Virus record (IMG/VR): IMGVR_UViG_3300025066_000019
DNA from: an uncultured virus (IMG/VR IMGVR_UViG_3300025066_000019)
Lineage: Duplodnaviria > Heunggongvirae > Uroviricota > Caudoviricetes
Length of the DNA stretch: 64,000 bases
Strand: one strand, 5' to 3'
The notes under the pieces are model-generated. The model saw only the letters and a program-made list of their open reading frames with translations. It did no database searches and was not told the origin of the DNA. A program made the translations under genes and the position numbers. The stretch's first letter is position 1. The number at the start of each line of letters is the position of its first letter. This document shows positions 19,616 through 64,000 of this stretch, in pieces.

Positions 19616-19709
19616 CACCCCCCCGAAAGGGAGACGCCGAATGAGAGCCCCCCGCCTGGGGGGTTCGACTTACAGTTTCTTTTTTTCACCCCCACCAACG
19701 AGGTATATC

Positions 19710-19919: not shown

Positions 19920-20011
19920 CCCCCGAAAGAGGGAGACGCTGAATGAGAGCCCCTCACATGGGGGGCTCGACTTACAGTTTCTTTTTCACCCCTAAAACGA
20001 GGTATAAGACT

Positions 20012-20302: not shown

Positions 20303-20392
20303 CCCCCCAAGAGAGGGAGACGCTGAATGAGAGCCCCCCGCTGGGGGGGTTCAACTTACAGTTTCTTTTTCCCCCCTAAAAGGAGTAGTTTG

Positions 20393-20701: not shown

Positions 20702-20789
20702 CCCCCCGAAAGAGGGAGACGCTGAATGAGAGCCCCCCGCTGGGGGGGTTCGACTTACAGTTTCTTTTTCCCCTACTAGAGAGGTAGTC

Positions 20790-20927
20790 ATGGACCCCTA
20801 CAAATTACTATGTCAATTACTGGAACATTTCGAGGCAGAATTCAGAAACCCCTCCAATGGGGTATCTTACAAGTGTGCCTTGATGCTAGGAATTGAAGCA
20901 TTGAAGCGTATCAGACCCTTTATGTAA
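20790..20927 (+). CDS. Hypothetical 45-aa cassette protein
   Basis: GAGGT RBS after repeat 4; MDPYKLLCQLL...; followed by terminator. Confidence 0.55.
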   Translation: MDPYKLLCQLLEHFEAEFRNPSNGVSYKCALMLGIEALKRIRPFM

Positions 20928-20942
20928 CCCCCCAAATGGAAA

Positions 20943-20975
20943 AGGCCTCACCCCTCTGGGGTGGGGTCTTTTTTT
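20943..20975 (+). terminator. Intrinsic terminator ending cassette array
   Basis: AGGCCTCACCCC-TCT-GGGGTGGGGTCT + T tract. Confidence 0.8.
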
Positions 20976-21089
20976 ATGCACTGGCCCTGACTCCCCACCT
21001 ATGGGTGGGTGTACTACCCCACCTAACCCCGTCGCACCCGCACCCCCAAAAGGAGGGGGCAAAAACCTGCCCCTCTCCCTGACTCCCTA

Positions 21090-21275
21090 CTATCGAGGGG
21101 GGAGCGAACCCCCTGAGCCATGATATGCCAATCGACCAAAATAAAATTCCTCGGATTTTACTTCCACCCTCACATCGGGGGAGGGGGTATAAGCAAGCGA
21201 CAAAGTGGCGGGGGTAGCACAACCCCCCGAAAGAAGTATAGCCGAACAGATGAGCATTGCAAGTAAAATTCGCAT
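21090..21275 (-). CDS. Small putative lipoprotein
   Basis: MRILLAMLICSAILLSGG-C signal/lipobox-like start; AAGGA RBS. Confidence 0.5.
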   Translation of the reverse strand: MRILLAMLICSAILLSGGCATPATLSLAYTPSPDVRVEVKSEEFYFGRLAYHGSGGSLPPR

Positions 21276-22261
21276 TTTCGTTTTCCTTGTGTGAGTTGAT
21301 TACCTTCCTACTTATATCATCGACAATCGAGAGGGAAAGCATTAGGGAATATCAAAAAATTTTGGATGGGCTCTGACTCCCCCACTCTGGGTGGTATCCT
21401 CGGCACTTGTGCATAAATGCCTAGGAAACGTAACTGGCTCCCCCACTCTGGGTGGTATCACCTAACCCAACAATTTCGCTCGGGGGGTGTGGGGTGCCAC
21501 CATACCCCAGAGGAGGGGGTTCGGCTCTTACTGGCTGACTCCCCCCTTGTGGGTATCATATTATTCTAATGGTGGGGGTTGACAGAATGACGACGATATG
21601 CTTTACCCATACTGATGGGGGGTGCGTTCGCACTGGCTCTGACTCCCCCCTTTTGGGTGTGTGTACCACCCAATATAGGGGGCTCACACCATAACGACAG
21701 CCAGCGAAAACGACGCCCTGACTCCCCCCTTGTGGGGAGTACCAGCTAACCCAACAATTTCGTCCAATGGGGGGTGGGGTGACCCCCATCCCAATGGTGG
21801 GGTATTGACAGAATGACGACCATTTGCTATAATATAGGCACAAGAGGGGGGGAAGAGGGGTTGGTTAAACTGGGTCATCCTGATGGATTGGGCAGTTTCC
21901 ACCCCTTCCACCCTCGATTTGACAAAATGACGACGATTTGCTATAACTAGGGCACAAGGGAGATAGTCTGAGACACGAATAAGCAAGTGAACAAGATGAT
22001 GATGTGCGAGGTCTCACGCCTCGGGGTCGCTTCTTTCTTTACAATTACCGCACGCTCTCGTCCTAGGCGGGATGACGCTGACGGAACCTTGGAAAGAATG
22101 AGCCCAGCATGTGAGAAAGATTGCACAAAGTCTGACGGGAATACAACACGAGCCAAAGTAGTCAAAATGGGTAAGATGGCCATCCCCATAAAAAACGAAA
22201 CCGCCTTGTTTGACCCGTCTGTTTGCTGTTTTTACAATTTCATTTTCGGGAGAAAATCAAG

Positions 22262-22474
22262 ATGCCTGCGAAACTCAAGAGTCAGTTTGTACCCGCCCGC
22301 CGCGAAACCCTCCAAATGGGGGACACGGTTCGACGAGTCCTGGCAGACGGAAGTCTGTCGGCCCCCCTAGCAGTGGGGCGTGAAGACGGGAAGTTCGCTC
22401 TGGTTACAGAGCACGGTTTGAAGTTCGCTTACCCCCGACATGGGGGGCTTGTGAGACGACTAGTCAAAGGGTAG
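22262..22474 (+). CDS. Hypothetical protein
   Basis: GGGAGA RBS, MPAKLKSQF. Confidence 0.6.
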   Translation: MPAKLKSQFVPARRETLQMGDTVRRVLADGSLSAPLAVGREDGKFALVTEHGLKFAYPRHGGLVRRLVKG

Positions 22475-22538
22475 TCAGAACGGGGGAGGGGCACTTTTCT
22501 GTTCGGCTATAACGAAACATTTTTTGGGAGTTAAGACG

Positions 22539-22904
22539 ATGCTGCGAACAATGGACGATTTGGTCACAATTCAACGCATGTTTGAAATGACTGACGACAA
22601 GGGGCAACAACGAGCATTGCGAACAATCGCACGAACGATTTTCGATGAAGTTTTCCCCGCTGTTCCAAGTGTAATGCTGGCGAGACGACTTCCGAGTGTC
22701 GCCCCTCACACTTATTCGATGCTCGACGGAACCGACCTGCGGAAACTGTTCACCATGGAGGAAATGGAGCAGTGGGTTGACAACAAAAAAATTGGGGTCA
22801 TCAAGCTTGTTAAGAGCCGCACCGGAATGAATCTGATGGATGCCAAACATTATGTCGAAGACCACTTGAAGTTCATCCCCTATTCGGGGCAAACCACCTT
22901 TTAG
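22539..22904 (+). CDS. Protein with ribosomal L7/L12 C-terminal-like domain
   Basis: KKIGVIKLVKSRTGMNLMDAKHYVED matches the L7/L12 CTD pattern. Confidence 0.65.
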   Translation: MLRTMDDLVTIQRMFEMTDDKGQQRALRTIARTIFDEVFPAVPSVMLARRLPSVAPHTYSMLDGTDLRKLFTMEEMEQWVDNKKIGVIKLVKSRTGMNLMDAKHYVEDHLKFIPYSGQTTF

Positions 22905-22948
22905 AAGGGAGGCACGTTTTCCTCTAATTTCACCGCGAAACTAAAACC

Positions 22949-22976
22949 AGGCCCCTCGAAAGAGGGGTCTTTTTTT
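22949..22976 (+). terminator. Intrinsic terminator
   Basis: AGGCCCCTC-GAAA-GAGGGGTCT + T tract. Confidence 0.85.
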
Positions 22977-23428
22977 GTGCCTGTCGTCTGACTCCCCCCT
23001 TGCGGGGGTGTCCTACCCCACCTAGGTGGGTCGCACCAATCACAAAGCCAGCGGCCTGACTCCCCCCTTGTGGGTTGTCCCAGCCCACCCATCACTTTCG
23101 CGATTTTCTAATGGGGGGTATGGTAATAGCCAGCGGTGGGGGTTGACAAAACAAACAGAACATGGCTGACTCCCCGCCTCTGGGGGGTACTACCTAACCC
23201 TTCAATTTCCGCCGGGGGGTGGGGTGACCCCCACGCCAATGGTGGGGGGTTGACAGAATAGAGGTAAAATGCTATAATATAGGCATAAGAGGGAGGATGG
23301 GAGTCGCGGGGCTGACCCTGATGGGTAGGCCGCTCTCCCCGCCCTCGGGGGGTGTTGACAGAATAGCGTCAAGTTGCTATAATTTAGGCATCAAGGGGAG
23401 TCAAGTCAAACGCTTGGGAGAACAAGCT

Positions 23429-23731
23429 ATGAGTGAGGAAAGAACAGTCTGTTCGACGTTCCATATCGTCGAGCATCAGTATGGGAACATGCGTCTAGAG
23501 AACGAACAGGAAATCCCGCAGCACCTATTTGAAGTAACTGTGTCCGCCCCCTGGATAGGGGAGGATACAATCCACGTCTTGGCGGCATCCGAAGAGGAAG
23601 CGTCGTGTCAGGCTGATTGCAGATGGGGCATTTCGTACTACAGTATGGACAAGCTGGCCCTTGCGTCCATAACTAAAACCGTCAAGCAAATGCCGATGTT
23701 GGCAAGGGGGTGGTCTGGAATCACGTTCTAA
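23429..23731 (+). CDS. Hypothetical protein
   Basis: GGGAGA RBS after tandem promoters. Confidence 0.65.
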   Translation: MSEERTVCSTFHIVEHQYGNMRLENEQEIPQHLFEVTVSAPWIGEDTIHVLAASEEEASCQADCRWGISYYSMDKLALASITKTVKQMPMLARGWSGITF

Positions 23732-23879
23732 AATGGGAATGAGTTGACCCACTCGACGATTAGCAAGGTCTAACGTGACCAAAATCCAACACCCCCCAAT
23801 ATGCCTATGGCCTGGGGGTGAGGTGAGGTCAGAACCGCCTAGCTCGGTTTGCACGTAAGCTGGTCGTTTTCCGTTTAAC

Positions 23880-23915
23880 GCCCGTATCAGGTAAATTCCT
23901 GGTGCGGGTTTTTTT
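23880..23915 (+). terminator. Intrinsic terminator
   Basis: CCCGTATCAGG-TAAATT-CCTGGTGCGGG + T tract. Confidence 0.8.
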
Positions 23916-24260
23916 GCGTACTTCTGGCTCCCCCCTTTTGGGTGTGTGTAACACCCAATCTGGGTGGCTCGCACCTATAAGCATAGCCAGCGGCCTGACT
24001 CCCCCCCAACGGGGAGTACCACCTAACCCAACAATTTCGTCTTTCGGGGGGTGGGGTGACCCCCATACAACATGGGGGGTATTGACAGAATGAAGGGTAA
24101 ATGCTACAATATAGGCATAAGAGGGGGGTGGGACGGGAGACGGGGCTGACCCTGATGGGTAGACCTCTCCCCCCTATCCTCGGGGTGTTGACAGAACAGA
24201 GTCGAAATGCTATAAATGAGGTATCAAGGGGAGTCACTAGTCTTAGTCTGGGAGAAAGTC

Positions 24261-24527
24261 ATGGAAATGACCTTAGGACGTTTTTTACACCAAATGGGGG
24301 GTCACACCGGAATGGGATGTGGCTATCTAGTCCCCGCCTGTGGGGGGGATGAGAACCCCACGATGTTCACATCACCGTGTGGCATGTGGAAAGAATGGCT
24401 GCTATACATGTGGAACGTCCGAACGGGCGACCATGTGTGGGTAGACCTTAAGGGTCGGGAATTTCGCCTACCTGAGGACGTTTTCAAGTCAGGTCAGGTC
24501 ACTAGCGGGGGGTTTGTAAACGAGTAA
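24261..24527 (+). CDS. Hypothetical protein
   Basis: GGGAGA RBS after tandem promoters. Confidence 0.6.
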   Translation: MEMTLGRFLHQMGGHTGMGCGYLVPACGGDENPTMFTSPCGMWKEWLLYMWNVRTGDHVWVDLKGREFRLPEDVFKSGQVTSGGFVNE

Positions 24528-24747
24528 AGCCGAAAAGTCAAGGTCACCAATATACCGGGTGAAAACTAGTTGAGTAGCCCGGTATACTGACCTATGGTTA
24601 ATCCCGTCTCGCTTCTTCTAAACGCCTTTGAGCTATTAGGATGCTTGGCAATGACAAGCGATGTTGGTGTAAGTCCAACTCGGGACGGATATACCGATTT
24701 GACAAAATGAGGGGATAATGTTACAATCTAGTCATGGGAGAAACAGT

Positions 24748-25050
24748 ATGTGTGACGACAAATCAGTGATTAAGGAAGATAGGGAACCGGGTTGGCGTGG
24801 CAGCGAGCATGTTATCGTGACATGCGACTGTGGGCAGAAAATCAAGCGGTACGCCGATGAGAACGGCGAATATTACCACAATACGGTTTGCCCGCGATGT
24901 GACCGTACCTCTTCTGGGGGGAACTATCGCACCGGGGTGCTGTCTGCTGGTTGGATGAGCCGGTCGGCTGTTGATTCAAGTCAACGGGAGTATGAGCGTC
25001 AGATGTTTGATTCTGATATGAACCAGATGTATGGAAGGGGGAATTGGTAA
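24748..25050 (+). CDS. Hypothetical zinc-ribbon protein
   Basis: GGGAGA RBS; CDCG and CPRC. Confidence 0.65.
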   Translation: MCDDKSVIKEDREPGWRGSEHVIVTCDCGQKIKRYADENGEYYHNTVCPRCDRTSSGGNYRTGVLSAGWMSRSAVDSSQREYERQMFDSDMNQMYGRGNW

Positions 25051-25206
25051 ATGGACATGAGAGGATGGCGAGTTTACCTAAACAGGCGACTAATCGACAT
25101 TGTGTTTTATCGTTCTAAATACAGTGCCGAATACGTCAAAGAATCCCTAATCGAACATGATGGGTACAATCCCGATATTCATGTGATGTTGGACAGAGCA
25201 ATATAA
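25051..25206 (+). CDS. Small hypothetical protein
   Basis: Abuts previous stop; WRVYLN..LIDIVFY...SLIEHDGY. Confidence 0.55.
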   Translation: MDMRGWRVYLNRRLIDIVFYRSKYSAEYVKESLIEHDGYNPDIHVMLDRAI

Positions 25207-25727
25207 CCTCAGAAAAGGAGCATTATGGATTTGACAATTAATTTAGAGCCATGGGCGGCGGCTGTGCTGTTCCTGGTAATCGCCTGGGCGGTTGGCGTCA
25301 CCGCCTTCGCCTTTGTGGAAAAATGAAATTCTCCCCGCCCTGTCTAGGTCTCCCACCTAGTCGGGGCTTTTTTGCGTACACGCCTGACTCCCCTCCTTTG
25401 GGGGCGTGTCGCACCCAATCTGGGTGGGTCGCACTATAAAGAAAGCCAGCGGCCTGACTCCCTCCTAACAGGGGGTCTTACCTAAACTAACAATTTCGCC
25501 AAATGGGGGGTAGGGGGTTCCTCCATAGCTCAGAGGAGGGGGGTTGACAGAATGAGGGTTAAATGGTACAATTAGGGCATAAGAGGGAAGGGGACGGGAA
25601 ACGCGAGGCTGACCCTGATGGGTAGCTCGCTTCCCCCCTGACCGAAGGGTGTTGACAGAATGATGACGGAATGGTATAAATGGGGCATAAGAGGGGAAGT
25701 CACAAGTCACTTGTTTGGGAGAACATT

Positions 25728-26024
25728 ATGAGTAGTCGCGTGATGGATGCTATCGACACCGTGGAAAAACGGTTGACGGGGAAAATGACACCTGAGGAGC
25801 TAAATGTTGCCTCCAAGTCGCTCAATATCGACTTTCAGGATATGTGCGAATTTCAGGAAATAAAAAGTCTGGCAGTTGCCAACGGGATTCTTACTCCTCA
25901 AGAGGGGTCTGAAATCTACTGTCGAGTGGGGCATAGTCCCAAGACGTTCAACAATCAGCCCTTTTGCGTGAAGTACGGAATTACGGCTATCATTGCGAGC
26001 GTGAGCAAGCAGTTGACAAAATAA
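25728..26024 (+). CDS. Hypothetical protein
   Basis: GGGAGA RBS. Confidence 0.65.
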   Translation: MSSRVMDAIDTVEKRLTGKMTPEELNVASKSLNIDFQDMCEFQEIKSLAVANGILTPQEGSEIYCRVGHSPKTFNNQPFCVKYGITAIIASVSKQLTK

Positions 26025-26083
26025 CGGGGAAGTGTTACAATCTGGGTATCAAGTCACAAGTCACTTTGTTCGGGAGAAACAAA

Positions 26084-26668
26084 ATGGAAGGTACAAGTCA
26101 CAGCGGCTACCTACGAGATATGTTTGCGTCACCGGCTGCACTGTATGAGGCAGTCGAATACCTGAAGGACGTTATCGAGGAGCAAGCGATTGAATTCGAT
26201 GCCATCGTCGTTCGGGGGGTGTCGGGGGCAGTCATCGGGGGGGCTTTAAGTCTGGCCCTGAGGAAACAGTTGACGGTAGTCCGCAAGAGGGGGGTGGATT
26301 GCCACTCCGAAATCGTGGGCCAATGTGAGGGGTTGTTACACGCCCCCCACAAGTACCTGATAGTTGACGATTTTGTGGCAACGGGTAAAACACTCGCCCA
26401 CATCGTCGCAGAAGTGGGGCTAGGGAATGCGATGGCTGAGTGTGTCGGCTTTATTCCCTACCACAACGATTATCGGGATGGGGAAGTTCGGGATTTGAAC
26501 CAAGCCACGCATCGGCTTATGCAAGCGGCGATGGCTGGCAAGTTTGACCCTACGGATGGGAGTGTTGACGACGATTGGGATAGGGCTTGGCACGCTGGGG
26601 AAGCGGAACGCTTTGAGGAGTATCTCCGCAAGGCTGGTGCATTACTAGAGGAGGAACCAACAGAATGA
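26084..26668 (+). CDS. Phosphoribosyltransferase-domain protein
   Basis: PRPP-binding loop YLIVDDFVATGKTL; RGVSG and VVRK motifs. Confidence 0.85.
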   Translation: MEGTSHSGYLRDMFASPAALYEAVEYLKDVIEEQAIEFDAIVVRGVSGAVIGGALSLALRKQLTVVRKRGVDCHSEIVGQCEGLLHAPHKYLIVDDFVATGKTLAHIVAEVGLGNAMAECVGFIPYHNDYRDGEVRDLNQATHRLMQAAMAGKFDPTDGSVDDDWDRAWHAGEAERFEEYLRKAGALLEEEPTE

Positions 26669-27336
26669 TGTTTTACAAAGTGGGGGGTTGCGTCCGTGAT
26701 GAAATCATGGGCGTCAACTCCAAGGATATTGACTACACTGTAGTCGGTGAATCGTTTGAAGCGATGAAATTAGAAATTGAGAATCGAGGGGGTCAAATCT
26801 TCCTTGAGAAACCTGAATTTCTAACCATTCGAGCGAAAGTCCCCGGTATGGGGGCGTGTGATTTTGTTCTAGCCCGTCAGGATGGTGACTATAGCGATGG
26901 TCGCCACCCCGAAAGGGTGGAGCCAGGAACTCTTGAAGATGACTTGGCCCGTCGTGACTTCACGATGAACGCAATCGCCCAAGGGGAAAACGGTGGAATC
27001 ATCGACCCCTACGGTGGGCGGTTTGATATTGCCCGCAGGGTAATCGTGGCAGTCGGGAATCCTTACGACCGATTCAAAGAGGACTATCTAAGGATGTTGC
27101 GGGCTGTACGGTTTGCAATCACCAAGGATATGAAACTATCGCAGGACGTTAATGACGCTATCGTAGTGTTAAGGCGTCACATCAGCGAGGTAAGTGTCGA
27201 GCGAATCCGCGAGGAATTGTACAAGGCATTTATGCACGACACTTTGAAAACTATCGCTCTACTGAGCGAATTGAAACTACTTGAGGAGGTGTTTGATAAA
27301 ACTCCCCTCAGGTTAAAACCTACTTTGGAATCCTGA
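26665..27336 (+). CDS. cca: tRNA nucleotidyltransferase (CCA-adding/poly(A) polymerase family, short form)
   Basis: VGGCVRD, KDIDY, DLARRDFTMNAIA, EDYLRMLRAVRF, ERIREEL; no HD domain. Confidence 0.9.
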   Translation: MMFYKVGGCVRDEIMGVNSKDIDYTVVGESFEAMKLEIENRGGQIFLEKPEFLTIRAKVPGMGACDFVLARQDGDYSDGRHPERVEPGTLEDDLARRDFTMNAIAQGENGGIIDPYGGRFDIARRVIVAVGNPYDRFKEDYLRMLRAVRFAITKDMKLSQDVNDAIVVLRRHISEVSVERIREELYKAFMHDTLKTIALLSELKLLEEVFDKTPLRLKPTLES

Positions 27337-28251
27337 GAGATTCTCCCCGCCCTGCTTGGTTCTCCCGCCAAGTGGGGCTTTTTTCGTGGGCGTCTGACTC
27401 CCCCCTCGTGGGGGGATGTCCCACCCCACCTAGGTGGGTCGCACCAATCGCACTAAGCACAAAGCCAGCGGTTGACTCCCCCCTTCTGGGGTGTCCTACC
27501 CCACCCATCAATTTCGGTTTTTTCCGAATGGGGGGTATGGTGGTAGCCACATGGGGGGTTGACAGGATGAATGAAATATGGTTGGCTCCCCCCTTCTGGG
27601 TGTAAGCTAAATCCGAACGGGGGTGTAAGGAAAAACCACATGGGGGGCACCCGAATGGATTTAACTAACAGACCAAAGGAGGGGGTACGGTATACGCTGA
27701 CTCCCCCCCTCTGGGTTGTCCCAGCCCACCCATCAATTTCGGTCGGGGGGTGGGGTGACCCCCATCCAATGAGAGGGGTGTTGACAGAATGGGGGCTAAA
27801 TGCTATAATAGGGGCATAAGAGGGAAGGGCAGAGCAGAGCGAACCGAACAGGTTGCCTGCCCCCTACCTCGGGGGTGTTGACAGAATGACGACGATTTGG
27901 TATAAATGAGTCATACAAGGGAGGACACGACCAGTGGAGCACTGAAAGGGGACCGGATGAACCCCCTGGAATAGGTGGAAAGTCGGATAGGCCACTACTA
28001 TGTCTAGAAACTAAGTCAGCAACAATGGGAGGACGGGCCAATGGGCTACTAAAAGGGGACCGATATACACCCCTGGGATGGCTGAAGTCGGATAAGCCGG
28101 ATGACTTGACAGAATGACGACCAGATGTTATAATTTTCTACAGAGCCCATCGGATGAGAACCGACCCTGGCAACTACCCCCTGATAGGGGGAGCGGTTAG
28201 ACAGTATGTCCTTTCGGCTCTAATTTGACAAAACAAGGGAGAGATGATACA

Positions 28252-28437
28252 ATGGGAGAACAAGCGAAAAAGGTCTATGTCATCTTGAATACGACCGAAT
28301 ATAGCACGACAATTGCTCAGTGTTACACTGACCCCAGAACCGCTATCCATATGCTCAACGTGTTCAACGAGAAAGCAAGGAAAGGCCAGACGTACAAGAT
28401 ACATATTGAAAGGCTCAACGAGCGAGTCACAGTTTGA
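28252..28437 (+). CDS. Hypothetical protein
   Basis: GGGAG RBS within promoter spacer. Confidence 0.6.
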   Translation: MGEQAKKVYVILNTTEYSTTIAQCYTDPRTAIHMLNVFNEKARKGQTYKIHIERLNERVTV

Positions 28438-28460
28438 CAAAACAAGGGAGAGATGCTACA

Positions 28461-28667
28461 ATGTTCAAGTACCAAGTTATTGTGGGGAATGTGGGAACCG
28501 TCTACGATGGTGACGGTTATCACGAGTCTCTGGAAATTTACAGCCACTACAAAAAAGCATCAAAGTCTGGTGTTGGTCGTGCAAGTGGGGAGGATGTCGC
28601 CCTAGTCGTTGACGGTGACATTAGGTTTGAAACTTTAGGGAGCAATTACCATGACGCCAATCACTAA
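28461..28667 (+). CDS. Hypothetical protein
   Basis: YQVIVGNVGTVYDG; RBS within promoter spacer. Confidence 0.65.
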   Translation: MFKYQVIVGNVGTVYDGDGYHESLEIYSHYKKASKSGVGRASGEDVALVVDGDIRFETLGSNYHDANH

Positions 28668-28884
28668 GCGTGAGCCCCCAGTGGGGTATCAAGAGGAATG
28701 GGATAGCACCACCTGGAACATGGGCTTTGTATTCCGGTGGTCTGAATTCTACGAAGCGTGGCTAGATTGTGGAATCGTCTTGACGGTTAAGCCGGGACAA
28801 ACACTAGCCGAAGCGTTTGAAGTCCGTATGGACGAACCGATGTGGAAACAGTACAGTATTTTCTTCAATGTTGACAAATCATAG
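28651..28884 (+). CDS. Hypothetical protein
   Basis: GGGAG RBS, overlapping ORF. Confidence 0.6.
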   Translation: MTPITKREPPVGYQEEWDSTTWNMGFVFRWSEFYEAWLDCGIVLTVKPGQTLAEAFEVRMDEPMWKQYSIFFNVDKS

Positions 28885-28897
28885 GGAGTATGCTATA

Positions 28898-29179
28898 ATG
28901 GGACAAACAGCAAAAGTCAGAGGCGTGGCGACTAGCATTCGTACAGCCGACAAGGTAACGTCCATCAGATACCACAATACCGATGTGGTGGAATTCAGCG
29001 ACAAGGAAATTATCCTCAACAGTGGGGGGTGGCAAACTGCCACAACTAAAACCCGCATGAACCAAGCGGCTAACCAGTTCGACTTGGGGTACACTGTCTA
29101 CCAGACTAAGGGGGAATGGTTTGTGGGGTACAAGGGGAAAGATTTGAAGTTTACGGACAAAATGATTTTGGAGAGATAG
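28898..29179 (+). CDS. Hypothetical protein
   Basis: YHNTDVV...LNSGGWQTATTKTRMNQ; RBS in promoter spacer. Confidence 0.7.
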   Translation: MGQTAKVRGVATSIRTADKVTSIRYHNTDVVEFSDKEIILNSGGWQTATTKTRMNQAANQFDLGYTVYQTKGEWFVGYKGKDLKFTDKMILER

Positions 29180-29227
29180 GAAAGTGTTTTCCTGTCAGTT
29201 TACATTTTTTTGAGGGAGTGTTGAGTT

Positions 29228-29431
29228 ATGCGTCAGACAAGCATTTTGATTGAGAATTGTGTTCCTGGTGATTCGATTACCGGAATGGGCAAAGTCATCT
29301 CGGTTCAGCGTTACAATGGGGCACAGAATCGTGTCCTCTTGACAACCACCACTTTGGGGACCGTTCGACGGCTCAAAGGGACAAGGTTGAAAGTCAATCG
29401 TCCGAAGTACAATCGTTCGACGGTTAAGTAA
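29228..29431 (+). CDS. Hypothetical basic protein
   Basis: GAGGGAG RBS. Confidence 0.6.
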   Translation: MRQTSILIENCVPGDSITGMGKVISVQRYNGAQNRVLLTTTTLGTVRRLKGTRLKVNRPKYNRSTVK

Positions 29432-29571
29432 ACCATAAAGGGGGGTGCAGGGAAACCGTAAGTCGCCCCACTAGATACAGTAGCGAGTGACCACCCAATA
29501 GCAGGGTGGATAACAGCCTGAAACCTGGCATGGCTCGCTAATCTTTCTTACATCTTACTTGAGGGAATAAC

Positions 29572-29814
29572 ATGGGACAATTATTAATTGACGACCAGAC
29601 AAAAAAAGTAGACGCTACGTATCGAGCATCCCACCTGGAAGTGGGGGAAGTGTTCAGCGGCAAGCTTGACGGTTTTACTGGGGTGTGGTTGCGAATTTGC
29701 GACCGGGCTGTGCTACTGAAAGACCCTATGATTATCGTCCACATTTACGACAATGACGACACCATCACCGATTTTGTGCGTCTGAACGCCACTATCACTA
29801 TCACAAATGTCTAA
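29572..29814 (+). CDS. Hypothetical protein
   Basis: GAGGGA RBS. Confidence 0.6.
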   Translation: MGQLLIDDQTKKVDATYRASHLEVGEVFSGKLDGFTGVWLRICDRAVLLKDPMIIVHIYDNDDTITDFVRLNATITITNV

Positions 29815-29828
29815 GGGAGAGTAAAGCC

Positions 29829-30092
29829 ATGGGTAGAGCCAAACAAATTGTAACGACACCAGAACCTCAAGTTCTCGGCTATACGCTGGACCTGGAACCT
29901 AAGGAAGCCGACCTATTAGTCCAGTTGTTACACTGTCATATAACCGGGCCGTCTGGAACTGATAGCCCCCGCGATACCCTCTGTAACCTAGCTTATAGGT
30001 TGATGGAAGCGGGCGTGAAAGAACCTGAGGAATACGGCAGATGGTTTACGGTTACCAATCGAGGTAAGCCAGATAATCTTTACATCAGCTAG
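29829..30092 (+). CDS. Hypothetical protein (paralogue family)
   Basis: GGGAG RBS; TLDLEPKEADLL motif. Confidence 0.6.
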   Translation: MGRAKQIVTTPEPQVLGYTLDLEPKEADLLVQLLHCHITGPSGTDSPRDTLCNLAYRLMEAGVKEPEEYGRWFTVTNRGKPDNLYIS

Positions 30093-30942
30093 GAAGGAAA
30101 CTCCCTCCCCGCCCGCTTGAGCTTCTCCCGCTCTTGCGGGCTTTTTTTATGTCCCGTCTGACTCCCCCCTTGCGGGGTGTCCCACCCCACCCAGGTGGGT
30201 CGCACCAGTAAGTCGCCCGTTGATGAGAGCCAGCGAGCCTGACTCCCCTCCTCTGGGGTGTATCAGCCCACCCAACAAATTCGCGTTTTTCCGAATGGGG
30301 GGTATGGTAGGGGCCACATGGGGGGTATAAGCCCTTGACTCCCCCCTAATGGGTGGTCCTACCTAACCCATCAATTTCCGATGGGGGGTGGGGTGACCCC
30401 CACTCCAAGCGAGGGGGTTGACAGACTGAGGAGATTATGGTTGACTCCCCTCTAATGGGTGTAAGGTAAATCCAGATGGGGGTGTAAGGGAAAACTTTTT
30501 GCTAACACCCTCTTATGGTTTTTTGTAACACCCAATGTGGGTGGCTGGCACCATACGAACAGTCAGCGGTTGACTCCCCCCCAATGGATTTTAGTAACAG
30601 ACCAGCGGAGGGGTGCGTATAGAAACGCCTGACTCCACCCCTATGGGGGTGTATCACCCCACCCAACCCCGTCGGCGGCACAGACGGATTTGCCCTATGC
30701 GGGGGGTAACGTCCCTCTCGATACTTTCATTGTAGCAAATAGGCTTCATTGTGTCAAGGGGTTGACAGAATGACGATGGAATGCTATAATGGGGGCATAA
30801 GAGAGAGAATGAGACAAGCGGGGGGGGTTGACAGAATGAAACATAAATGCTATAAATGAGGCATAAGAGGGAATGACACACAACGCCGCCAGTCGGGGGG
30901 TGTTGACAGAATGACAGAACAATGTTATAAAGGGAGCATAAG

Positions 30943-31122
30943 ATGAAACGCTATTTGCTGTTTGCTGGGGACTACTACTACCCCTGTGGAGGGATGAACG
31001 ATTTCATCAAGTCATTTGATACTGCGAATGACGCATTTGAACACGCATTAAGTCTAAAGGTAGACTGGTGCCACATGCTGGATAGTCAGACGGGTAGTTT
31101 CGTCGATACGCCTAGCATTTGA
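30943..31122 (+). CDS. Small hypothetical protein
   Basis: MKRYLLFAGDYYYPCGGMNDF; GGGAG RBS. Confidence 0.6.
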   Translation: MKRYLLFAGDYYYPCGGMNDFIKSFDTANDAFEHALSLKVDWCHMLDSQTGSFVDTPSI

Positions 31123-39300: not shown

Positions 39301-39555
39301 ATGAAGATAACACTGATAGAAAACAAGCCGGTAGGAATGGCGATTAGTAATTTTTCTGGCGGGGACATTGTTCAATGTGTTAAGGTTCCCCCAGGTGCAA
39401 ATGCAGACCGAGATAAAATATGTATGGTTATCGAGGATTATAAACACCCTCTGGTAAACATGAAACCAAGCGATGGGTTTACCCTATGGGGAAACGAACA
39501 CAGCGGATACCTGTTTAAGAAGATAGGTTATCTACAGATTGACTTGACAGAATAA
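39301..39555 (+). CDS. Hypothetical protein
   Basis: RBS in promoter spacer. Confidence 0.6.
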   Translation: MKITLIENKPVGMAISNFSGGDIVQCVKVPPGANADRDKICMVIEDYKHPLVNMKPSDGFTLWGNEHSGYLFKKIGYLQIDLTE

Positions 39556-39570
39556 GGAACAAGTGCTATA

Positions 39571-39828
39571 ATGAGTGAACAAGACAAAGACGAAGCCGTG
39601 TGTGTCAACTGTGAAGATGGTGGCTGTGGTCACTGTGAAAACCTGGAGGAATTAACTCCTGCATCACAGGCATTGGCTAATGCGTTTGACAACCCTGATG
39701 ACTTTGATTGGGGAATGACTGAAGAACGTGAGGAAGCCGGATTCGCCAACTTCGGGACAACTCCTGAAGAGGCAGAGCGATTGCGTCAGTTGGAGTATGA
39801 CAAGGTAGAATTGCCAGAGACCGACTGA
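39571..39828 (+). CDS. Hypothetical acidic protein (CxxC x2)
   Basis: RBS in promoter spacer. Confidence 0.6.
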   Translation: MSEQDKDEAVCVNCEDGGCGHCENLEELTPASQALANAFDNPDDFDWGMTEEREEAGFANFGTTPEEAERLRQLEYDKVELPETD

Positions 39829-39861: not shown

Positions 39862-40371
39862 ATGAGAGACACGATTGAAAGAATACCGATGTGCTGGAAG
39901 TGTTCTGAATGTATCTCTGTGGAGCTACCTGTTGAGATGCATCTCCCTGCTGTACGTGAGATGGTAGGTTGTAAGGCTTGCGATGAAATCAAGTCTTACA
40001 TAGATGCCGATAAGTTATGTCCTATTCTTAAAAAAAGAGAAGAGATTATGATTGGCTACAAGCTGTTCAAAAAGCGTAAGAACGGGACGCTGGGTCCGCT
40101 ATTTATCAATCGCAAGCTGGTAGTTCCTATTGGCGAGTGGATGCAAGCAGAGGCCCATCGTACTAAAGGTTTCGCGTTTCGTCCAGGGTGGCACGCCTGT
40201 GCTGTTCCTGTAGCTCCTCACCTGAAGATGAACCTAGCCAACGGAGAGACAAGGGTTTGGTGTAAGGTTGAGTTGCTAGATGTTGATGTAGAAGAGAGAC
40301 CAAAGGCTCAGGGAGGAAAGTGGTTCCTCGCTGGTCAGTTAAGAGTTATTGAAGAGGTTGTTGCCTCTTGA
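39862..40371 (+). CDS. Hypothetical protein (possible second start at MIGYKLF)
   Basis: GGAGGGAG RBS; GYKLF...GPLFIN...RPGWH. Confidence 0.65.
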   Translation: MRDTIERIPMCWKCSECISVELPVEMHLPAVREMVGCKACDEIKSYIDADKLCPILKKREEIMIGYKLFKKRKNGTLGPLFINRKLVVPIGEWMQAEAHRTKGFAFRPGWHACAVPVAPHLKMNLANGETRVWCKVELLDVDVEERPKAQGGKWFLAGQLRVIEEVVAS

Positions 40372-40412
40372 CAGAATGAATACTAAATGTTAGAATGTGG
40401 AGACAAGAGAGA

Positions 40413-41036: not shown

Positions 41037-41068
41037 ACTTTTTCTTTTTTTTGAGGAACCATGAAACA

Positions 41069-41527
41069 ATGGAAAACTCTACAACTGCGACCGAGACCCC
41101 TGCTGTTACTGAAACTGCTGCCCCTGAGGCTGCTGCCACTCCTGAGGCAAAGCCTGCTGCAAAGCCTGCTGCCCCTCCTCGTGTGGATGCTGAGACGTTC
41201 GTCAACGGCTTTCGAGACGTTGCTAATGGAACAGCAACCTTTACCGACAAGTCTAAGCCTTGTGGACCAATCAAGACGATTGTGGTTGGTGCCTCTGTTC
41301 CTGTGAGCCGCAACGGTGTTGCTGCCCTTTTGGGAATGAAGTATAACGCTGCGGTGAACCGCGAGAAGGCTTATCGTGAGAAGGGAGTTAAACTTCCTGA
41401 GATTAAGCTGTCTCAGCGAGGTGCGTCCCTCGACGTGGCATCACTGAACGCATTGCTCGTCGATGCCGAAGTGGTCGAGCAGGCTGTGGCTGAGCCTACA
41501 ACTGAAACGGTAAGCGACCAAGGCTAG
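41069..41527 (+). CDS. Hypothetical protein with Ala/Pro/Thr-rich N-terminus
   Basis: GAGG RBS; precedes the tRNA-like RNA cluster. Confidence 0.7.
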   Translation: MENSTTATETPAVTETAAPEAAATPEAKPAAKPAAPPRVDAETFVNGFRDVANGTATFTDKSKPCGPIKTIVVGASVPVSRNGVAALLGMKYNAAVNREKAYREKGVKLPEIKLSQRGASLDVASLNALLVDAEVVEQAVAEPTTETVSDQG

Positions 41528-41535
41528 TGACGGTC

Positions 41536-41628
41536 GTGGACATGGTCTAGTGGACAAGACGCCCCTCGACGGTAGGATTTAATTACCCCTACCGAGGGGA
41601 GACTAGGGTTCGACTCCCTATGTCCTAC
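41536..41628 (+). ncRNA. tRNA-like RNA with elongated anticodon arm
   Basis: D-arm GTCT-AGTGGACA-AGAC, T-arm TAGGG-TTCGACT-CCCTA, GGACA/TGTCC acceptor pairs; anticodon arm replaced by CCCCT..CGGTAGG/CCTACCG..AGGGG. Confidence 0.7.
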
Positions 41629-41696
41629 TTAGAAGAAATCCAAACATCGACGCAAGGGGTATGCAACCCGCCGCGAGAATCGCGGTTCGATGTAAC

Positions 41697-41775
41697 GGGC
41701 TTGAAATGGCTTCGACTCACTGAAAATCTTTAACGAGAACAGTTGAGTACTAGGGTTCGATTCCCTACAGGTCCA
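41697..41775 (+). ncRNA. Minimal tmRNA tRNA-like-domain RNA
   Basis: GGGCTTG/CAGGTCC-A with G3.U70 and A73, stemless AAATGGCTTCGAC loop, short helix, canonical T-arm; no tag ORF. Confidence 0.7.
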
Positions 41776-41788
41776 CTTGATACATATA

Positions 41789-41907
41789 TACTGTTCTGGG
41801 TTTGGCCTTGAGCAAAACTCACCACAAGGTCTAAAGTAAGACAGTGAGTGTCAGAAACGGTCCTAGTGTTGCTTAGGCGGCAAGTTCAACTCTTGCCAAC
41901 AGTACCA
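41789..41907 (+). ncRNA. tRNA-like RNA with encoded CCA and non-canonical core
   Basis: TACTGTT/AACAGTA-CCA, T-arm GCAAG-TTCAACT-CTTGC, internal TGAGCAA/TTGCTTA and ACTCAC/GTGAGT helices. Confidence 0.6.
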
Positions 41908-42145
41908 ACTCAACTTTGTTTTACTTAAACTACCAAGATTGGAGAGAGAGATGCAATACGAAGTATACCTGACCAAGACCGTACACCTCTTTGTTGAGGC
42001 TGACAACAGCGACGATGCCGCTAACCTAGCATTGCTGGAAGCGGACACAGATAATAGCTGGGGTAACGCCCCTGCTGACCTGTACAGTGTAGACGAAGTT
42101 GATGAAGACTAACACCATTTGACAGAATAAGGGAGAAGTGCTACA

Positions 42146-42328
42146 ATGGAAATCAAAGACTTAGGAACGATGAACGGATGGGGTGAAACCTATCCTCAAG
42201 CCTACGACGACCACGTTAAGAATGACGAATGTAGGAATAAGGCTGAAGTGGTTAAGACCGGAAACTGTCGCTATCAGACCACTTGTGGCAACTGTGGAGT
42301 TCGATTCAGCGTTGACTCCTCAGACTGA
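42146..42328 (+). CDS. Small hypothetical protein (CxxC)
   Basis: RBS in promoter spacer. Confidence 0.6.
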   Translation: MEIKDLGTMNGWGETYPQAYDDHVKNDECRNKAEVVKTGNCRYQTTCGNCGVRFSVDSSD

Positions 42329-48542: not shown

Positions 48543-48845
48543 GTCTCACCTTATTTCCCAAGGTCGTTAGTGTATAAAAGAAAACGCCCCGATTAAGGAG
48601 CGTTGACCTAATGCTGACTACGGTAAGTGAATGTCACATTAGGGAGTTTCGTATTTAGACTCGCCATTACTCACTTACACTAGGAATACATCGGTCGTCC
48701 TAGGAGAGGTGTTCGAGTATGATAACTGCCAAAAAAACCGATATTGGTGTGCGTTCAGAGGTCCGACACATTGTGTAAGAACTAAATCCTACAATCACTG
48801 TCATACCTGTGACACCCTCCAAAGTATTCGGTAAGGGGGGCAGAG

Positions 48846-48916
48846 CTACTCGACTAGGATTTGAACCTAGACAAAGACCTTCAGAGAGTCTTGTGCTACC
48901 GTTACACCATCGAGTA
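48846..48916 (-). tRNA. tRNA-Gln(CTG)
   Basis: Full cloverleaf TACTCGA/TCGAGTA, loop CTCTGAA; CCA not encoded. Confidence 0.9.
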
Positions 48917-48991
48917 TCAAAAATGTCATACACTTAGTCCGAGCAGAGCTAACATGGAGTGGAAGGTGCAAATACTAAGGAATATGACAAG

Positions 48992-49063
48992 CAGTTCACC
49001 TAGGAGTCGAACCTAGTCTTTAAGCTTCAAAAACTCGCGTGCTGACCATTACACTAGTGAACT
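48992..49063 (-). tRNA. tRNA-Gln(TTG)
   Basis: Cloverleaf AGTTCAC/GTGAACT, loop TTTTGAA, weak anticodon stem; CCA not encoded. Confidence 0.8.
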
Positions 49064-58620: not shown

Positions 58621-58716
58621 GGTGGCGACTGGTGACTGGTGTTGCCCTTGGTCTACAAAACCAATGAGGGGTGCGTAAACCGCATCCTTGGTAGGTTCGA
58701 TTCCTATCCGCCACCG
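58621..58716 (+). tRNA. tRNA-Sec-fold tRNA with ACA anticodon
   Basis: 8-position acceptor, 6-bp D-stem with 4-nt loop, long variable arm, 5-bp T-stem, G73; anticodon loop CTACAAA. Confidence 0.8.
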
Positions 58717-63564: not shown

Positions 63565-63968
63565 GGGCCATCACTGGTATCGACTGGATGGATTGAATTG
63601 TGAATTGCGTGTCGTGGTTGGTTAGTTGGCCACGTAAAAAGCTAACCGAAAATCTTAATTGCTAACACAAATAAGAACGTTATCGCCAATACCATCGCTG
63701 GTGTTGCTCCTCGTTTCGAGGGAAATAGCCTAAACGCCACAAGCGTTTCTGCTATCCGTTCCGTAGCTCTGGTTGCGTAACAAAGCCTTGGTCGGGCTAA
63801 ACAGACCAAACGTGTCGGCGTTACCGGCCTAGTCCCAACAATGTGTATGAGTGGGTAAAGACATCCATTACACTGACTTTGTTTGCTGAGTAAGATTCAA
63901 CAAACTATACACGTAGACGTTTGCGGTACAGACATAACAGGACTCGGGTTCGACTCCCGAATGGTCCA
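63565..63968 (+). ncRNA. ssrA: tmRNA
   Basis: GGGCCAT/ATGGTCC-A with G3.U70, CTGGTATCGAC 5' motif, T-arm TCGGG-TTCGACT-CCCGA, tag ORF 63661-63780 ending ALVA*; own promoter at 63524. Confidence 0.92.
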
Positions 63969-64000
63969 CTTGACAGAAAAGGTTTGAAATGGTAGAAAAG

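What the first reader, a model, noticed from the sequence alone, without database searches (positions are those of the whole stretch)
41536..41907. Operon-like cluster of non-decoding tRNA mimics
Seen within 370 bp: (1) a tRNA with normal D and T arms but a 12-bp extended anticodon arm, (2) a three-way junction ACATCGA/TCGATGT at 41644-41693, (3) a tmRNA-like mini RNA, (4) a CCA-ending RNA with T-arm, stemless CTGGGTTTGGC loop and a large insert. Elements 1, 3 and 4 keep the acceptor/T-arm surface and lack a usable anticodon. Established: EF-Tu, RNase P, CCA enzyme and several tRNA-targeting defence toxins recognise that surface. Inference: a family of decoy or effector RNAs rather than decayed tRNAs, since the replaced arms are themselves well paired. 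This is the best candidate for an undescribed system in the window.
Basis: partly seen in the sequence, partly recalled or inferred. Interest (0 to 1): 0.85.

Follow-up and report, generated by a model that had tools for sequence, protein, structure and literature searches.

The report
Phage mini-tmRNA with tRNA-shaped companions
A novel large phage packs into one 370-base gap between genes a tag-less mini version of the ribosome-rescue RNA (a type already known from phage DS6A) and two tRNA-shaped RNAs that cannot read codons, a long-known but still unexplained kind of phage RNA.

Summary
In detail: all four elements are in the sequence at the stated coordinates and are beyond chance. The claim of an undescribed system does not hold.

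- **Element 3 (41697-41775)** is a TLD-only, tag-less mini-tmRNA. A covariance model built from 12 other phage copies scores it 57.8 bits. The published DS6A copy scores 57.0; ordinary tRNAs score 33 or less.
- **Element 1 (41536-41628)** is a true tRNA body: canonical D and T arms, an ARAGORN default call, and 0 such calls in 40 shuffles. A 12-bp arm replaces its anticodon loop.
- **Element 4 (41789-41907)** is a 119-nt RNA with a T arm, a closed acceptor stem and an encoded A-CCA end.
- **Element 2 (41644-41693)** is a small Y-shaped fold with no known family.

Elements 1 and 4 match the known but unexplained class of phage tRNA-like stable RNAs (T5 RNA1-3, T4 RNAC/RNAD). The cluster has no promoter or terminator of its own, so tRNA-processing enzymes must cut the RNAs out.

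No close relative of this phage was found, so elements 1, 2 and 4 have no conservation evidence. A decoy role is plausible only for the mini-tmRNA.

This scan has found mini-tmRNAs and anticodon-less phage tRNA look-alikes many times on other DNA. Verdict: new members of known kinds, moderate to low interest.

The parts
41536..41628 (+). Element 1: 93-nt tRNA-framed RNA. Acceptor 5' strand 41536-41542; D arm 41545-41560; 12-bp arm with 3-nt bulge 41562-41599 (11-nt loop 41577-41587); T arm 41604-41620; acceptor 3' strand 41621-41627. No 7-nt anticodon loop.
   Evidence: ARAGORN default call, 0 calls in 40 shuffles; drawing; energies. The Rfam tRNA model does not reach threshold.
41644..41693 (+). 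Element 2: 50-nt Y-shaped fold. Closing stem ACAUCGA/UCGAUGU, hairpins GGGU-AUGCA-ACCC and GCCGCGA-GAA-UCGCGGU. No known family.
   Evidence: Fold z -3.29, 1 of 200 shuffles. Kept in the 413-nt context fold. No Rfam match at E up to 10.
41697..41775 (+). Element 3: TLD-only (tag-less) mini-tmRNA. Acceptor GGGCUUG/CAGGUCC with G3:U70 and A73; D-loop analogue AAAUGGCUUCGAC; closing hairpin; T arm 41751-41767. No encoded CCA.
   Evidence: Rfam tmRNA 46.8 bits, ends only. Model R1, built from 12 other phage copies, gives 57.8 bits, E 4.9e-13. DS6A copy 57.0 bits.
41789..41907 (+). Element 4: 119-nt tRNA-framed RNA. Acceptor 41789-41795 / 41898-41904; T arm 41880-41896 (loop UUCAACU); encoded CCA 41905-41907. 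The ~85-nt interior has an uncertain fold.
   Evidence: T arm plus 7-bp closure plus CCA: 1 observed against 0.02 per shuffled window. Fold z -2.38, 3 of 200 shuffles. The frame is the unconstrained optimum.
40368..40396 (+). Nearest upstream copy of the phage's repeated promoter (TTGACAGAAT...TGnTAnAAT); likely start of the transcript that carries the cluster.
   Evidence: family D1, at least 35 copies. No promoter of this type and no terminator-like site between here and 42119.
41051..41527 (+). Upstream ORF (158 aa, no family). Its stop codon lies 8 nt before element 1.
41939..42112 (+). Small downstream ORF (ATG at 41952) with no promoter of its own. It depends on read-through of the RNA cluster.
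42119..42147 (+). Next promoter copy, closing the transcription unit.
63565..63971 (+). The phage's full-length one-piece tmRNA with its own promoter. Its last 11 nt with trailer (GGTCCACTTGA) are identical to those of element 3.
   Evidence: Rfam tmRNA 103.1 bits; sequence. Candidate tag only at a relaxed ARAGORN threshold.
26665..27336 (+). Phage CCA-adding enzyme (tRNA nucleotidyltransferase). Inferred partner, because elements 1 and 3 encode no CCA.
   Evidence: PHROGs E 2.6e-51. Pfam PolyA_pol head 2e-21.

Best explanation
The 372-nt gap holds four small RNA modules made as part of one longer transcript, probably from the promoter at 40368. They are cut out by the host's tRNA-processing enzymes: RNase P at the 5' ends, a 3' tRNase at the 3' ends, and CCA addition, for which the phage brings its own enzyme.

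One module has an assignable job. Element 3 is a TLD-only mini-tmRNA. It carries the alanine identity pair G3:U70 and A73 and the tmRNA-type D-loop analogue and T arm that hold SmpB, but it has no message. It should be charged with alanine and bind SmpB and EF-Tu. It would then compete with full-length tmRNA (the host's, and perhaps the phage's own at 63565-63971), so that stalled ribosomes are tagged less, or not at all.

Elements 1 and 4 are tRNA-framed stable RNAs of the T4 RNAC/RNAD and T5 RNA1-3 kind. They keep the surface read by processing enzymes and present a custom hairpin where the anticodon should be, so they cannot decode. Their job is unknown. Element 2 is a structured spacer or small partner RNA.

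Shown: the sequence features, the family membership of element 3, and the lack of a promoter of its own. Inferred: processing, charging, SmpB competition, and that elements 1, 2 and 4 are maintained rather than decaying.
For: **Element 3.**
- Rfam tmRNA matches both ends with 314 model positions replaced by 23 nt.
- In an alignment of 12 of them, 12 of 23 predicted pairs show compensatory changes and G3:U70 is present in 12 of 12.
- Model R1, built from those 12 without the window, scores the window copy 57.8 bits, all 24 of 24 metagenome pattern hits 51.5-85.6 bits and DS6A 28478-28557 at 57.0 bits. T5 tRNAs reach at most 20.8 bits.
- Literature: DS6A 'TLD only', and a similar molecule strongly inhibits tmRNA (passages of PMC4131195, and PMC11915505).

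**Element 1.** ARAGORN default call against 0 calls in 40 shuffles. The cloverleaf with the long arm is 10 kcal/mol better than the rival fold.

**Element 4.** Closure plus CCA is expected 0.02 times per window.

**The gap.** It is non-coding and folds with z -3.35.

**Transcription.** Phage promoters lie at 40368 and 42119 with none between, and there is no terminator-like site.

**CCA enzyme.**

**Known class.** The T5 record annotates RNA1 and RNA2 as 'tRNA-like stable RNA with unknown functions' and RNA3 as 'putative tRNA-like RNA' among its tRNA genes. These fold as acceptor/T-arm frames with large interiors. T4 RNAC/RNAD have unknown roles.
Against: - There is no conservation evidence for elements 1, 2 and 4. 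No close relative turned up in cultured phages, IMG/VR, the one metagenome scan or bacterial genomes.
- The 18 relatives at 35-51% protein identity have only terminators and promoters at the matching spot.
- Element 1 has two mismatches at the top of its acceptor stem, which could impair RNase P and CCA handling and looks like decay.
- Element 3 falls 0.2 bits under Rfam's gathering score, and its closing hairpin lacks the family's common CCGCAnGCGG motif.
- Companion tRNA look-alikes are not a family habit. In 47 other mini-tmRNA loci, 6 further T-arm motifs lie outside called tRNAs and only 1 of them closes; flanks were only 300-2500 nt.
- The phage also has a full tmRNA, which a pure 'block trans-translation' role does not explain. 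In 5 other mini-tmRNA phage contigs (3 of them at least 99% complete) no full tmRNA was found.
- No expression or processing data could be obtained.
Confidence: 0.6

Rival explanations
1. Only the mini-tmRNA is functional. Elements 1 and 4 are dead tRNA genes that took short insertions in the anticodon region, and element 2 is leftover spacer.
For: - Element 1 has G1.A72 and U2.U71 mismatches.
- A 5-nt direct repeat CCCCT flanks its insert (sequence), like the scar of an insertion or partial duplication.
- Its T arm is 95% identical over 19 nt to that of element 3, suggesting recent duplication and shuffling.
- The cluster is absent from all 18 distant relatives.
Against: - The inserts extend the helices almost perfectly: 12 bp in element 1, and a -38.1 kcal/mol frame in element 4.
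- The D and T arm tertiary residues of element 1 are intact.
- Element 4 keeps a perfect Watson-Crick acceptor stem and an encoded CCA.
- The genome is tightly packed, and the downstream ORF depends on transcription through this gap.
- Phages are known to maintain such RNAs (T5).
Confidence: 0.2
2. The tRNA-shaped modules mainly serve as cut-here signals ('tRNA punctuation', like plant mitochondrial t-elements; recalled). RNase P and the 3' tRNase would separate the upstream two-gene mRNA from the small downstream ORF. This does not exclude the best explanation.
For: - The cluster has no promoter or terminator of its own.
- It starts 8 nt after the upstream stop codon and ends about 45 nt before the next ATG.
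- Earlier notes of this scan reached the same reading for similar phage modules (e1-5930242, e1-5356741).
Against: One tRNA-like unit would be enough for cutting; four tightly packed, different modules are more than punctuation needs. Element 3 belongs to a family with strong covariation and conserved alanine identity, which a mere cleavage signal would not require.
Confidence: 0.25
3. One reading: elements 1 and 4 are decoys or sponges for host tRNA-targeting defence nucleases or other tRNA-binding proteins.
For: - The acceptor/T-arm/elbow surface is kept while decoding is abolished.
- The 5' side of element 1's arm reads CGACGG, and A20 and C35 are present. These are tRNA-Arg(ACG)-like features (identity rules recalled, not tested).
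- The phage invests in tRNA biology: a CCA enzyme, a tmRNA and an odd tRNA-Sec-like gene.
Against: - No defence or repair gene lies beside the cluster. Pfam and PHROGs give no RNA ligase, kinase or nuclease among the neighbours scanned.
- Most known tRNA-cutting toxins read the anticodon loop, which is exactly what is missing or buried here (recalled).
- No conservation data.
Confidence: 0.12
4. Elements 1 and 4 are intron-bearing tRNA genes that are spliced to working tRNAs (ARAGORN intron mode: tRNA-Gly(ACC) with a 23-nt intron, tRNA-Thr(AGU) with a 48-nt intron).
For: With introns allowed, ARAGORN at its default threshold calls element 1 as tRNA-Gly(acc) with the loop CUACCGA (U33, G37). 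At a relaxed threshold it calls element 4 as tRNA-Thr(agt) with the loop CUAGUGU.
Against: - The relaxed intron mode makes 128 calls in this window, so the element 4 call means nothing.
- The 'introns' sit at 30/31 and 25/26, not at the usual site.
- They are far too short for group I introns, and no intron family matches.
- Only one 3-nt bulge is present, so there is no bulge-helix-bulge.
- The spliced element 1 would have a 4-bp anticodon stem and an ACC anticodon, which bacteria do not use (recalled).
- Promoters and tmRNA mark a bacterial host, which has no tRNA splicing endonuclease.
Confidence: 0.03
5. Elements 3 and 4 together are a two-piece (circularly permuted) tmRNA gene.
For: - The Rfam tmRNA_permuted model matches 41751-41804 (21.6 bits, E 0.031).
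- GGGUUUG at 41798-41804 can pair with element 3's CAGGUCC and differs by one base from element 3's own 5' strand.
- ARAGORN at a relaxed threshold prints a 'permuted tmRNA'.
Against: - 21.6 bits is far under the gathering score of 47.
- ARAGORN's 'tag' lies inside the downstream protein ORF, and the call appears only at a relaxed ARAGORN threshold; a related relaxed setting with introns allowed makes 128 tRNA calls in this window.
- Element 3 closes on its own 5' strand exactly as 47 other one-piece mini-tmRNAs do.
- Element 4 has its own acceptor stem, T arm and CCA.
- R1 does not match element 4 at E up to 10.
Confidence: 0.03

Closest known systems
'TLD only' (CDS-less) tmRNA of Mycobacterium phage DS6A (JN698994.1, 28478-28557; named in PMC4131195 and PMC11915505)
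   Same: About 80 nt. Acceptor stem with G3:U70 and A73, GGnUUCGAC D-loop analogue, one closing helix with an inner hairpin, tmRNA-type T arm, no tag message. Both score 57-58 bits with the same independent model. Both are unannotated gaps between phage genes.
   Different: The window copy is AT-richer (46% against 70% G+C). Its inner hairpin lacks the common CCGCAnGCGG motif. It sits directly between other structured RNAs, and its phage also carries a full-length tmRNA.
Phage T5 RNA1, RNA2 and RNA3 (AY543070.1 30501-30644, 32959-33083, 33877-33949; RNA1 and RNA2 annotated 'tRNA-like stable RNA with unknown functions', RNA3 'putative tRNA-like RNA')
   Same: 73-144 nt RNAs encoded among phage tRNA-type genes. 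They have an acceptor-type closing stem and, in RNA1 and RNA2, a T arm (RNA1's loop UUCAACU is the same as element 4's). A large non-anticodon interior replaces the decoding arm. Function unknown.
   Different: No sequence similarity: no blastn match of the window region in the phage collection. T5's lie inside a large array of ordinary tRNA genes, whereas the window's nearest ordinary tRNAs are 7 kb away. Stability and processing are shown for T5 (per the record's notes) but not here.
Phage T4 RNAC and RNAD (species 1 and 2 RNAs)
   Same: Small RNAs transcribed from the phage tRNA region, of unknown role (passages of PMC3014915, and PMC9697503).
   Different: I did not fetch or compare their sequences. 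That they have a tRNA-like 3' part is recalled, not tested.
Full-length tmRNA (Rfam RF00023)
   Same: Element 3 keeps both ends of the model (positions 1-24 and 339-374), with alanine identity and the SmpB-facing D-loop analogue.
   Different: The pseudoknots, resume codon and tag reading frame are absent: 314 model positions are replaced by 23 nt. The score is 46.8 against a gathering score of 47.

Membership tests
TLD-only (CDS-less) phage tmRNA, DS6A type | 7-bp acceptor stem with G3:U70 and discriminator A73 | tested here: met
   GGGCUUG/CAGGUCC + A. Same in 24 of 24 distinct sequences and in 24 of 24 metagenome hits.
TLD-only (CDS-less) phage tmRNA, DS6A type | tmRNA D-loop analogue (GGnUUCGAC) and T arm GGGUUCGAnUCCC | tested here: met
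   GGCUUCGAC and UAGGGUUCGAUUCCCUA. These columns are invariant in alignment A1.
TLD-only (CDS-less) phage tmRNA, DS6A type | No mRNA-like domain; about 65-85 nt in all | tested here: met
   79 nt. Rfam alignment shows 314 model positions replaced by 23 nt.
TLD-only (CDS-less) phage tmRNA, DS6A type | Scores like known members with a covariance model built without it | tested here: met
   R1 scores: window 57.8 bits, DS6A 57.0 bits, T5 tRNAs at most 20.8 bits. The best non-member elsewhere scored 32.8 bits.
TLD-only (CDS-less) phage tmRNA, DS6A type | Charged by AlaRS; binds SmpB; inhibits tmRNA | not testable with these tools
   Only literature on a similar molecule (Mao et al. 2009, as cited in PMC4131195).
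tmRNA (Rfam RF00023) | Reaches the family's gathering score | tested here: not met
   46.8 against 47 bits. Five other phage mini-tmRNAs reach 50.8-75.3 bits.
Phage tRNA-like stable RNAs (T5 RNA1-3, T4 RNAC/RNAD) | tRNA-type acceptor/T-arm frame with a non-decoding interior | tested here: met
   Element 1. Element 4. T5 RNA1 and RNA2 folds for comparison.
Phage tRNA-like stable RNAs (T5 RNA1-3, T4 RNAC/RNAD) | Encoded among the phage's tRNA-type genes | tested here: inconclusive
   They flank a mini-tmRNA, but the ordinary tRNA genes lie at 48845-49063 and the tRNA-Sec-like gene at 58621.
Phage tRNA-like stable RNAs (T5 RNA1-3, T4 RNAC/RNAD) | Accumulate as stable processed RNAs during infection | not testable with these tools
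Phage tRNA-like stable RNAs (T5 RNA1-3, T4 RNAC/RNAD) | Sequence homology to the T4/T5 RNAs | tested here: not met
   No blastn match of 41400-42000 in 50,697 phage records. This class is defined by kind, not by homology.
Canonical tRNA (Rfam RF00005) | Matches the tRNA model; 7-nt anticodon loop with U33 | tested here: not met
   No RF00005 match for elements 1 or 4 at the gathering score, and none is listed at E up to 10 (that call left out one lower-scoring overlapping match to a family of the same clan, so a weak RF00005 match under the tRNA-Sec hit on element 1 cannot be excluded). The loop is replaced by 28 nt in element 1 and by a long interior in element 4.
Intron-containing tRNA (group I or bulge-helix-bulge) | Group I core, or two 3-nt bulges 4 bp apart at the splice sites | tested here: not met
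   Inserts of 21-23 and 48 nt; no intron family in Rfam; only one bulge in element 1. ARAGORN's relaxed intron mode gives 128 calls per window.
Permuted two-piece tmRNA (Rfam RF04321) | Reaches the gathering score; coding piece with a tag frame | tested here: not met
   21.6 against 47 bits. ARAGORN's tag appears only at a relaxed threshold and lies inside a protein ORF.

The most novel reading that the evidence does not exclude
The four modules act as one phage toolkit for taking over the host's 'tRNA-shaped RNA' surveillance. The alanine-charged mini-tmRNA would draw SmpB and EF-Tu away from host tagging, while the phage's own full tmRNA supplies a phage-chosen tag. The two anticodon-less tRNA frames, finished by the phage's CCA enzyme, would present custom hairpins that soak up host tRNA-targeting defence or modification proteins. 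The T4/T5 'stable RNAs of unknown function' would then be members of a general anti-defence RNA class.
Probability: 0.1. Interest if true: 0.75.

Novelty: new member of a known kind. Interest (0 to 1): 0.35.

Why it matters
Phage tRNA look-alikes that cannot decode have been known since the T4 and T5 era, and nobody knows what they do. Tag-less mini-tmRNAs are in print for one phage only, yet they turn up in dozens of uncultured phage contigs here. This window puts both kinds side by side in one transcription unit, in a phage that also carries a full tmRNA, a CCA-adding enzyme and an odd tRNA-Sec-like gene. That makes it a compact test bed for asking whether such RNAs tamper with ribosome rescue and tRNA surveillance. 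As a discovery it adds members to known kinds rather than a new kind, and the two tRNA-framed RNAs rest on a single sequence.

Tried and rejected
**Search for relatives of the cluster**
- blastn of 41400-42000 against cultured phages: no match.
- The upstream 158-aa protein in IMG/VR: 42 pattern stretches, none confirmed.
- The downstream 421-aa protein: 17 IMG/VR loci at 35-51% identity, no match in cultured phages, and 1 contig from an uncultured-genome assembly (MAG) at 51%. None has RNA genes at the matching spot.
- Search of five whole relative contigs with the DNA of the cluster: only T-arm-sized matches.

**Pattern scans**
- A two-T-arm pattern: 24 loci, only ordinary tRNA arrays.
- An exact 29-mer of element 4: 0 hits, so the window's own contig is not in IMG/VR.

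**Other dead ends**
- The metagenome scan found 24 more mini-tmRNAs but no relative of this phage.
No expression data, and no SmpB search beyond the window.
- No SmpB, RNA ligase or repair domain among the 87 of 133 ORFs scanned with Pfam.
- The idea that the CUUGA trailers after the RNA genes are a processing signal is rejected. After the full tmRNA and the tRNA-Sec-like gene they are the -35 box of the next promoter.
- YrlA/Y RNA considered and dropped: no Rfam match, and its ends lie at the opposite pole (recalled).
- The 421-aa neighbour as an RtcB-type ligase: no Pfam family.
- Among 542 ARAGORN tRNA calls in 321 fetched loci, only 3 are 90 nt or longer and not Leu, Ser, Tyr or Sec (the long-variable-arm tRNAs). 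None has an extended anticodon arm.
- The similarity of element 4's inner GGGUUUG...ACUCAC to the 5' half of element 3 is weak.
Full report
**What the window is.**
The 64-kb window is part of a novel large phage.
- PHROGs finds a large terminase (6417-8564, E 3.9e-22), an HNH endonuclease and a tRNA nucleotidyltransferase (26665-27336, E 2.6e-51). Pfam confirms the PolyA_pol head domain of the last.
- The + strand carries at least 35 copies of one promoter, TTGACAGAAT...TGnTAnAAT.
- Rfam at gathering thresholds finds a full-length tmRNA (63565-63971, 103.1 bits), a tRNA-Sec-like gene (58621-58715, 68.9 bits) and two tRNA-Gln genes.
- No whole genome is held. The region of interest has no blastn match among 50,697 phage records.

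**The observation.**
The gap 41528-41938 has no + strand ORF of 40 aa or more. It folds better than shuffles on the + strand (z -3.35, 0 of 100) and less so on the - strand (z -1.93). It holds three T-arm motifs. The whole window has 9 against 1.04 expected in shuffles; with looser pairing rules the count is 12 against 2.8.

*Element 1 (41536-41628).*
- ARAGORN at default settings calls it a tRNA, and makes 0 calls in 40 dinucleotide shuffles of the window.
- It has U8, a canonical D arm, G26, a 4-nt variable region and a canonical T arm.
- The anticodon stem runs on for 12 bp in all, with a 3-nt bulge and an 11-nt loop. The top two acceptor pairs are mismatched.
- The cloverleaf with the long arm costs -33.5 kcal/mol, near the optimum of -36.4. 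A rival 57-nt fold that uses GUAGGAU (41572) as the acceptor strand costs -23.3.

*Element 2 (41644-41693).* This is the predicted three-way junction (z -3.29). It has no Rfam match.

*Element 4 (41789-41907).*
- It has a T arm, an all-Watson-Crick acceptor closure and an encoded A-CCA.
- That combination is expected 0.02 times per shuffled window.
- The tRNA-like frame is also its unconstrained optimal fold.
- Its interior fold is uncertain.

**Element 3 is a tag-less mini-tmRNA.**
- *Rfam.* The tmRNA model aligns 41697-41778 at both ends, with 314 positions replaced by 23 nt (46.8 bits, gathering score 47).
Of these, 27 hold the same architecture, giving 23 distinct sequences. All have G3:U70, A73, GGnUUCGAC and a closing helix, and they often sit inside phage tRNA arrays.
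- *Covariation.* Twelve of them with equal 5' spacing give a consensus structure in which 12 of 23 pairs show compensatory changes.
- *Model scores.* The model built from those twelve (R1) scores the window copy 57.8 bits (E 4.9e-13). It scores all 24 of 24 hits of a metagenome pattern scan 51.5-85.6 bits. It scores the unannotated gap 28478-28557 of mycobacteriophage DS6A 57.0 bits. Ordinary tRNAs score far lower: T5 tRNA-Ala 20.8 bits, and the best odd tRNA-like in a relative 32.8 bits.
- *Literature.* DS6A's 'TLD only' tmRNA is in print. The same passages say that a similar molecule strongly inhibits tmRNA, perhaps by titrating SmpB (PMC4131195; PMC11915505; passages seen only).
- *Conclusion.* Element 3 is a new member of a published type.

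**Elements 1 and 4 belong to an old, unexplained class.**
- The T5 record AY543070.1 annotates RNA1 and RNA2 as 'tRNA-like stable RNA with unknown functions', and RNA3 as 'putative tRNA-like RNA', among its tRNA genes.
- Folded, RNA1 and RNA2 are acceptor/T-arm frames with large interiors. RNA1 has the same T loop, UUCAACU, as element 4.
- T4's RNAC and RNAD come from its tRNA region and have unknown roles (PMC3014915; PMC9697503; passages seen only).
- Earlier notes of this scan list many anticodon-less phage tRNA look-alikes and pointed me to T5. They also list many mini-tmRNAs.

**Context and processing.**
- The nearest upstream promoter is at 40368 and the next is at 42119. No terminator-like site lies between them.
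- Element 1 starts 8 nt after the stop codon of the upstream ORF. The small ORF after element 4 (ATG at 41952) has no promoter of its own.
- The RNAs must therefore be cut out of a longer transcript. This fits RNase P and 3' tRNase recognition of tRNA-like frames, and CCA addition by the host or phage enzyme. That step is inferred.

**Limits.**
- I found no close relative of this phage.
- The 17 IMG/VR loci and one contig from an uncultured-genome assembly (MAG) with a 35-51% identical neighbour protein have terminators and promoters, not RNA genes, at the matching place.
- Elements 1, 2 and 4 therefore rest on one sequence.
- Companion look-alikes are not a habit of the mini-tmRNA family. In 47 other loci only 6 further T-arm motifs lie outside called tRNAs, and 1 of them closes.
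- In five other mini-tmRNA phage contigs no full tmRNA was found.
- Read data were not available.

**Rejected readings.**
- *Spliced tRNAs.* ARAGORN's intron mode gives tRNA-Gly(acc) for element 1 and, at a relaxed threshold, tRNA-Thr(agt) for element 4. The relaxed mode makes 128 calls in this window. The inserts are too short for group I introns and have no bulge-helix-bulge.
- *Two-piece tmRNA from elements 3 and 4.* Support is 21.6 bits against a gathering score of 47, plus a relaxed ARAGORN call whose tag lies inside a protein ORF.

**Verdict.**
The cluster is a new instance of two known kinds of phage RNA placed side by side. A decoy-like mechanism is credible only for the mini-tmRNA.

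Noticed in passing
window 58621-58715 (+): A tRNA-Sec-shaped gene (Rfam tRNA-Sec 68.9 bits) whose anticodon loop reads CUACAAA, so the anticodon is ACA, not UCA. ARAGORN default misses it. It may be one of the tRNA-Sec-like 'allo-tRNAs' reported in bacteria and their phages (PMC5389517, abstract and passages).
   Followed up: partly
window 63565-63971 (+): The full-length phage tmRNA with its own promoter is not called by ARAGORN at default. At a relaxed threshold a candidate tag ATSVSAIRSVALVA appears. Its last 11 nt with trailer (GGTCCACTTGA) are identical to those of the mini-tmRNA at 41770-41780, hinting at a shared origin.
   Followed up: partly
window 21500-52000 (+), e.g. 39544-39572, 40368-40396, 42119-42147: At least 35 copies of one strong promoter, TTGACAGAAT-N-TGnTAnAAT, with one in front of nearly every small gene. 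The 'CTTGAC' seen right after the tmRNA and the tRNA-Sec-like gene is the -35 box of the next copy.
   Followed up: partly
window 17400-31000: Dense families of repeated GC-rich hairpin elements between the small genes: 23 copies of CTGACTCCCCCCTTGTGGGG-like units, six tandem units of about 65 nt at 17413-17880, and four 90-nt units at 19614-20788 (families D11, D13-D19). Not explained.
   Followed up: no
window 41602-41620 and 41749-41767: The T arms of elements 1 and 3 are 95% identical over 19 nt. The 3' 57 nt of element 1 are the second-best match of the mini-tmRNA model in the window (20.4 bits). Element 1 may be a chimera of a tRNA 5' part and a mini-tmRNA-like 3' part.
   Followed up: partly
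L004 1922-2054 (-): A distant relative (143-kb IMG/VR contig) has a 133-nt RNA-like unit just after a terminator. It has a 7-bp acceptor closure AAAGGUG/CACUUUU, a T arm (loop UUCAAAU) and no D arm, and neither ARAGORN nor Rfam calls it. It is another long tRNA-framed RNA in this phage group.
   Followed up: partly
L005 5290-5364 (+): An odd tRNA-like gene right after the 421-aa homologue. ARAGORN says tRNA-Ile(tat), Rfam tRNA does not reach threshold, and the mini-tmRNA model gives 32.8 bits.
   Followed up: no
L272-L274, L279, L280, L282, L284-L287, L291, L293, L294 (about 5-70 nt after the mini-tmRNA): A group of GC-rich metagenome contigs keeps a conserved long hairpin (GGUAGACGGCGGGG...CCCCGCCGYCUACC) directly downstream of the mini-tmRNA.
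   Followed up: no
L076 279-369 (-): A 91-nt 'tRNA-Ala(cgc)' with G3:U70 and a long variable arm, in a phage tRNA array.
   Followed up: no
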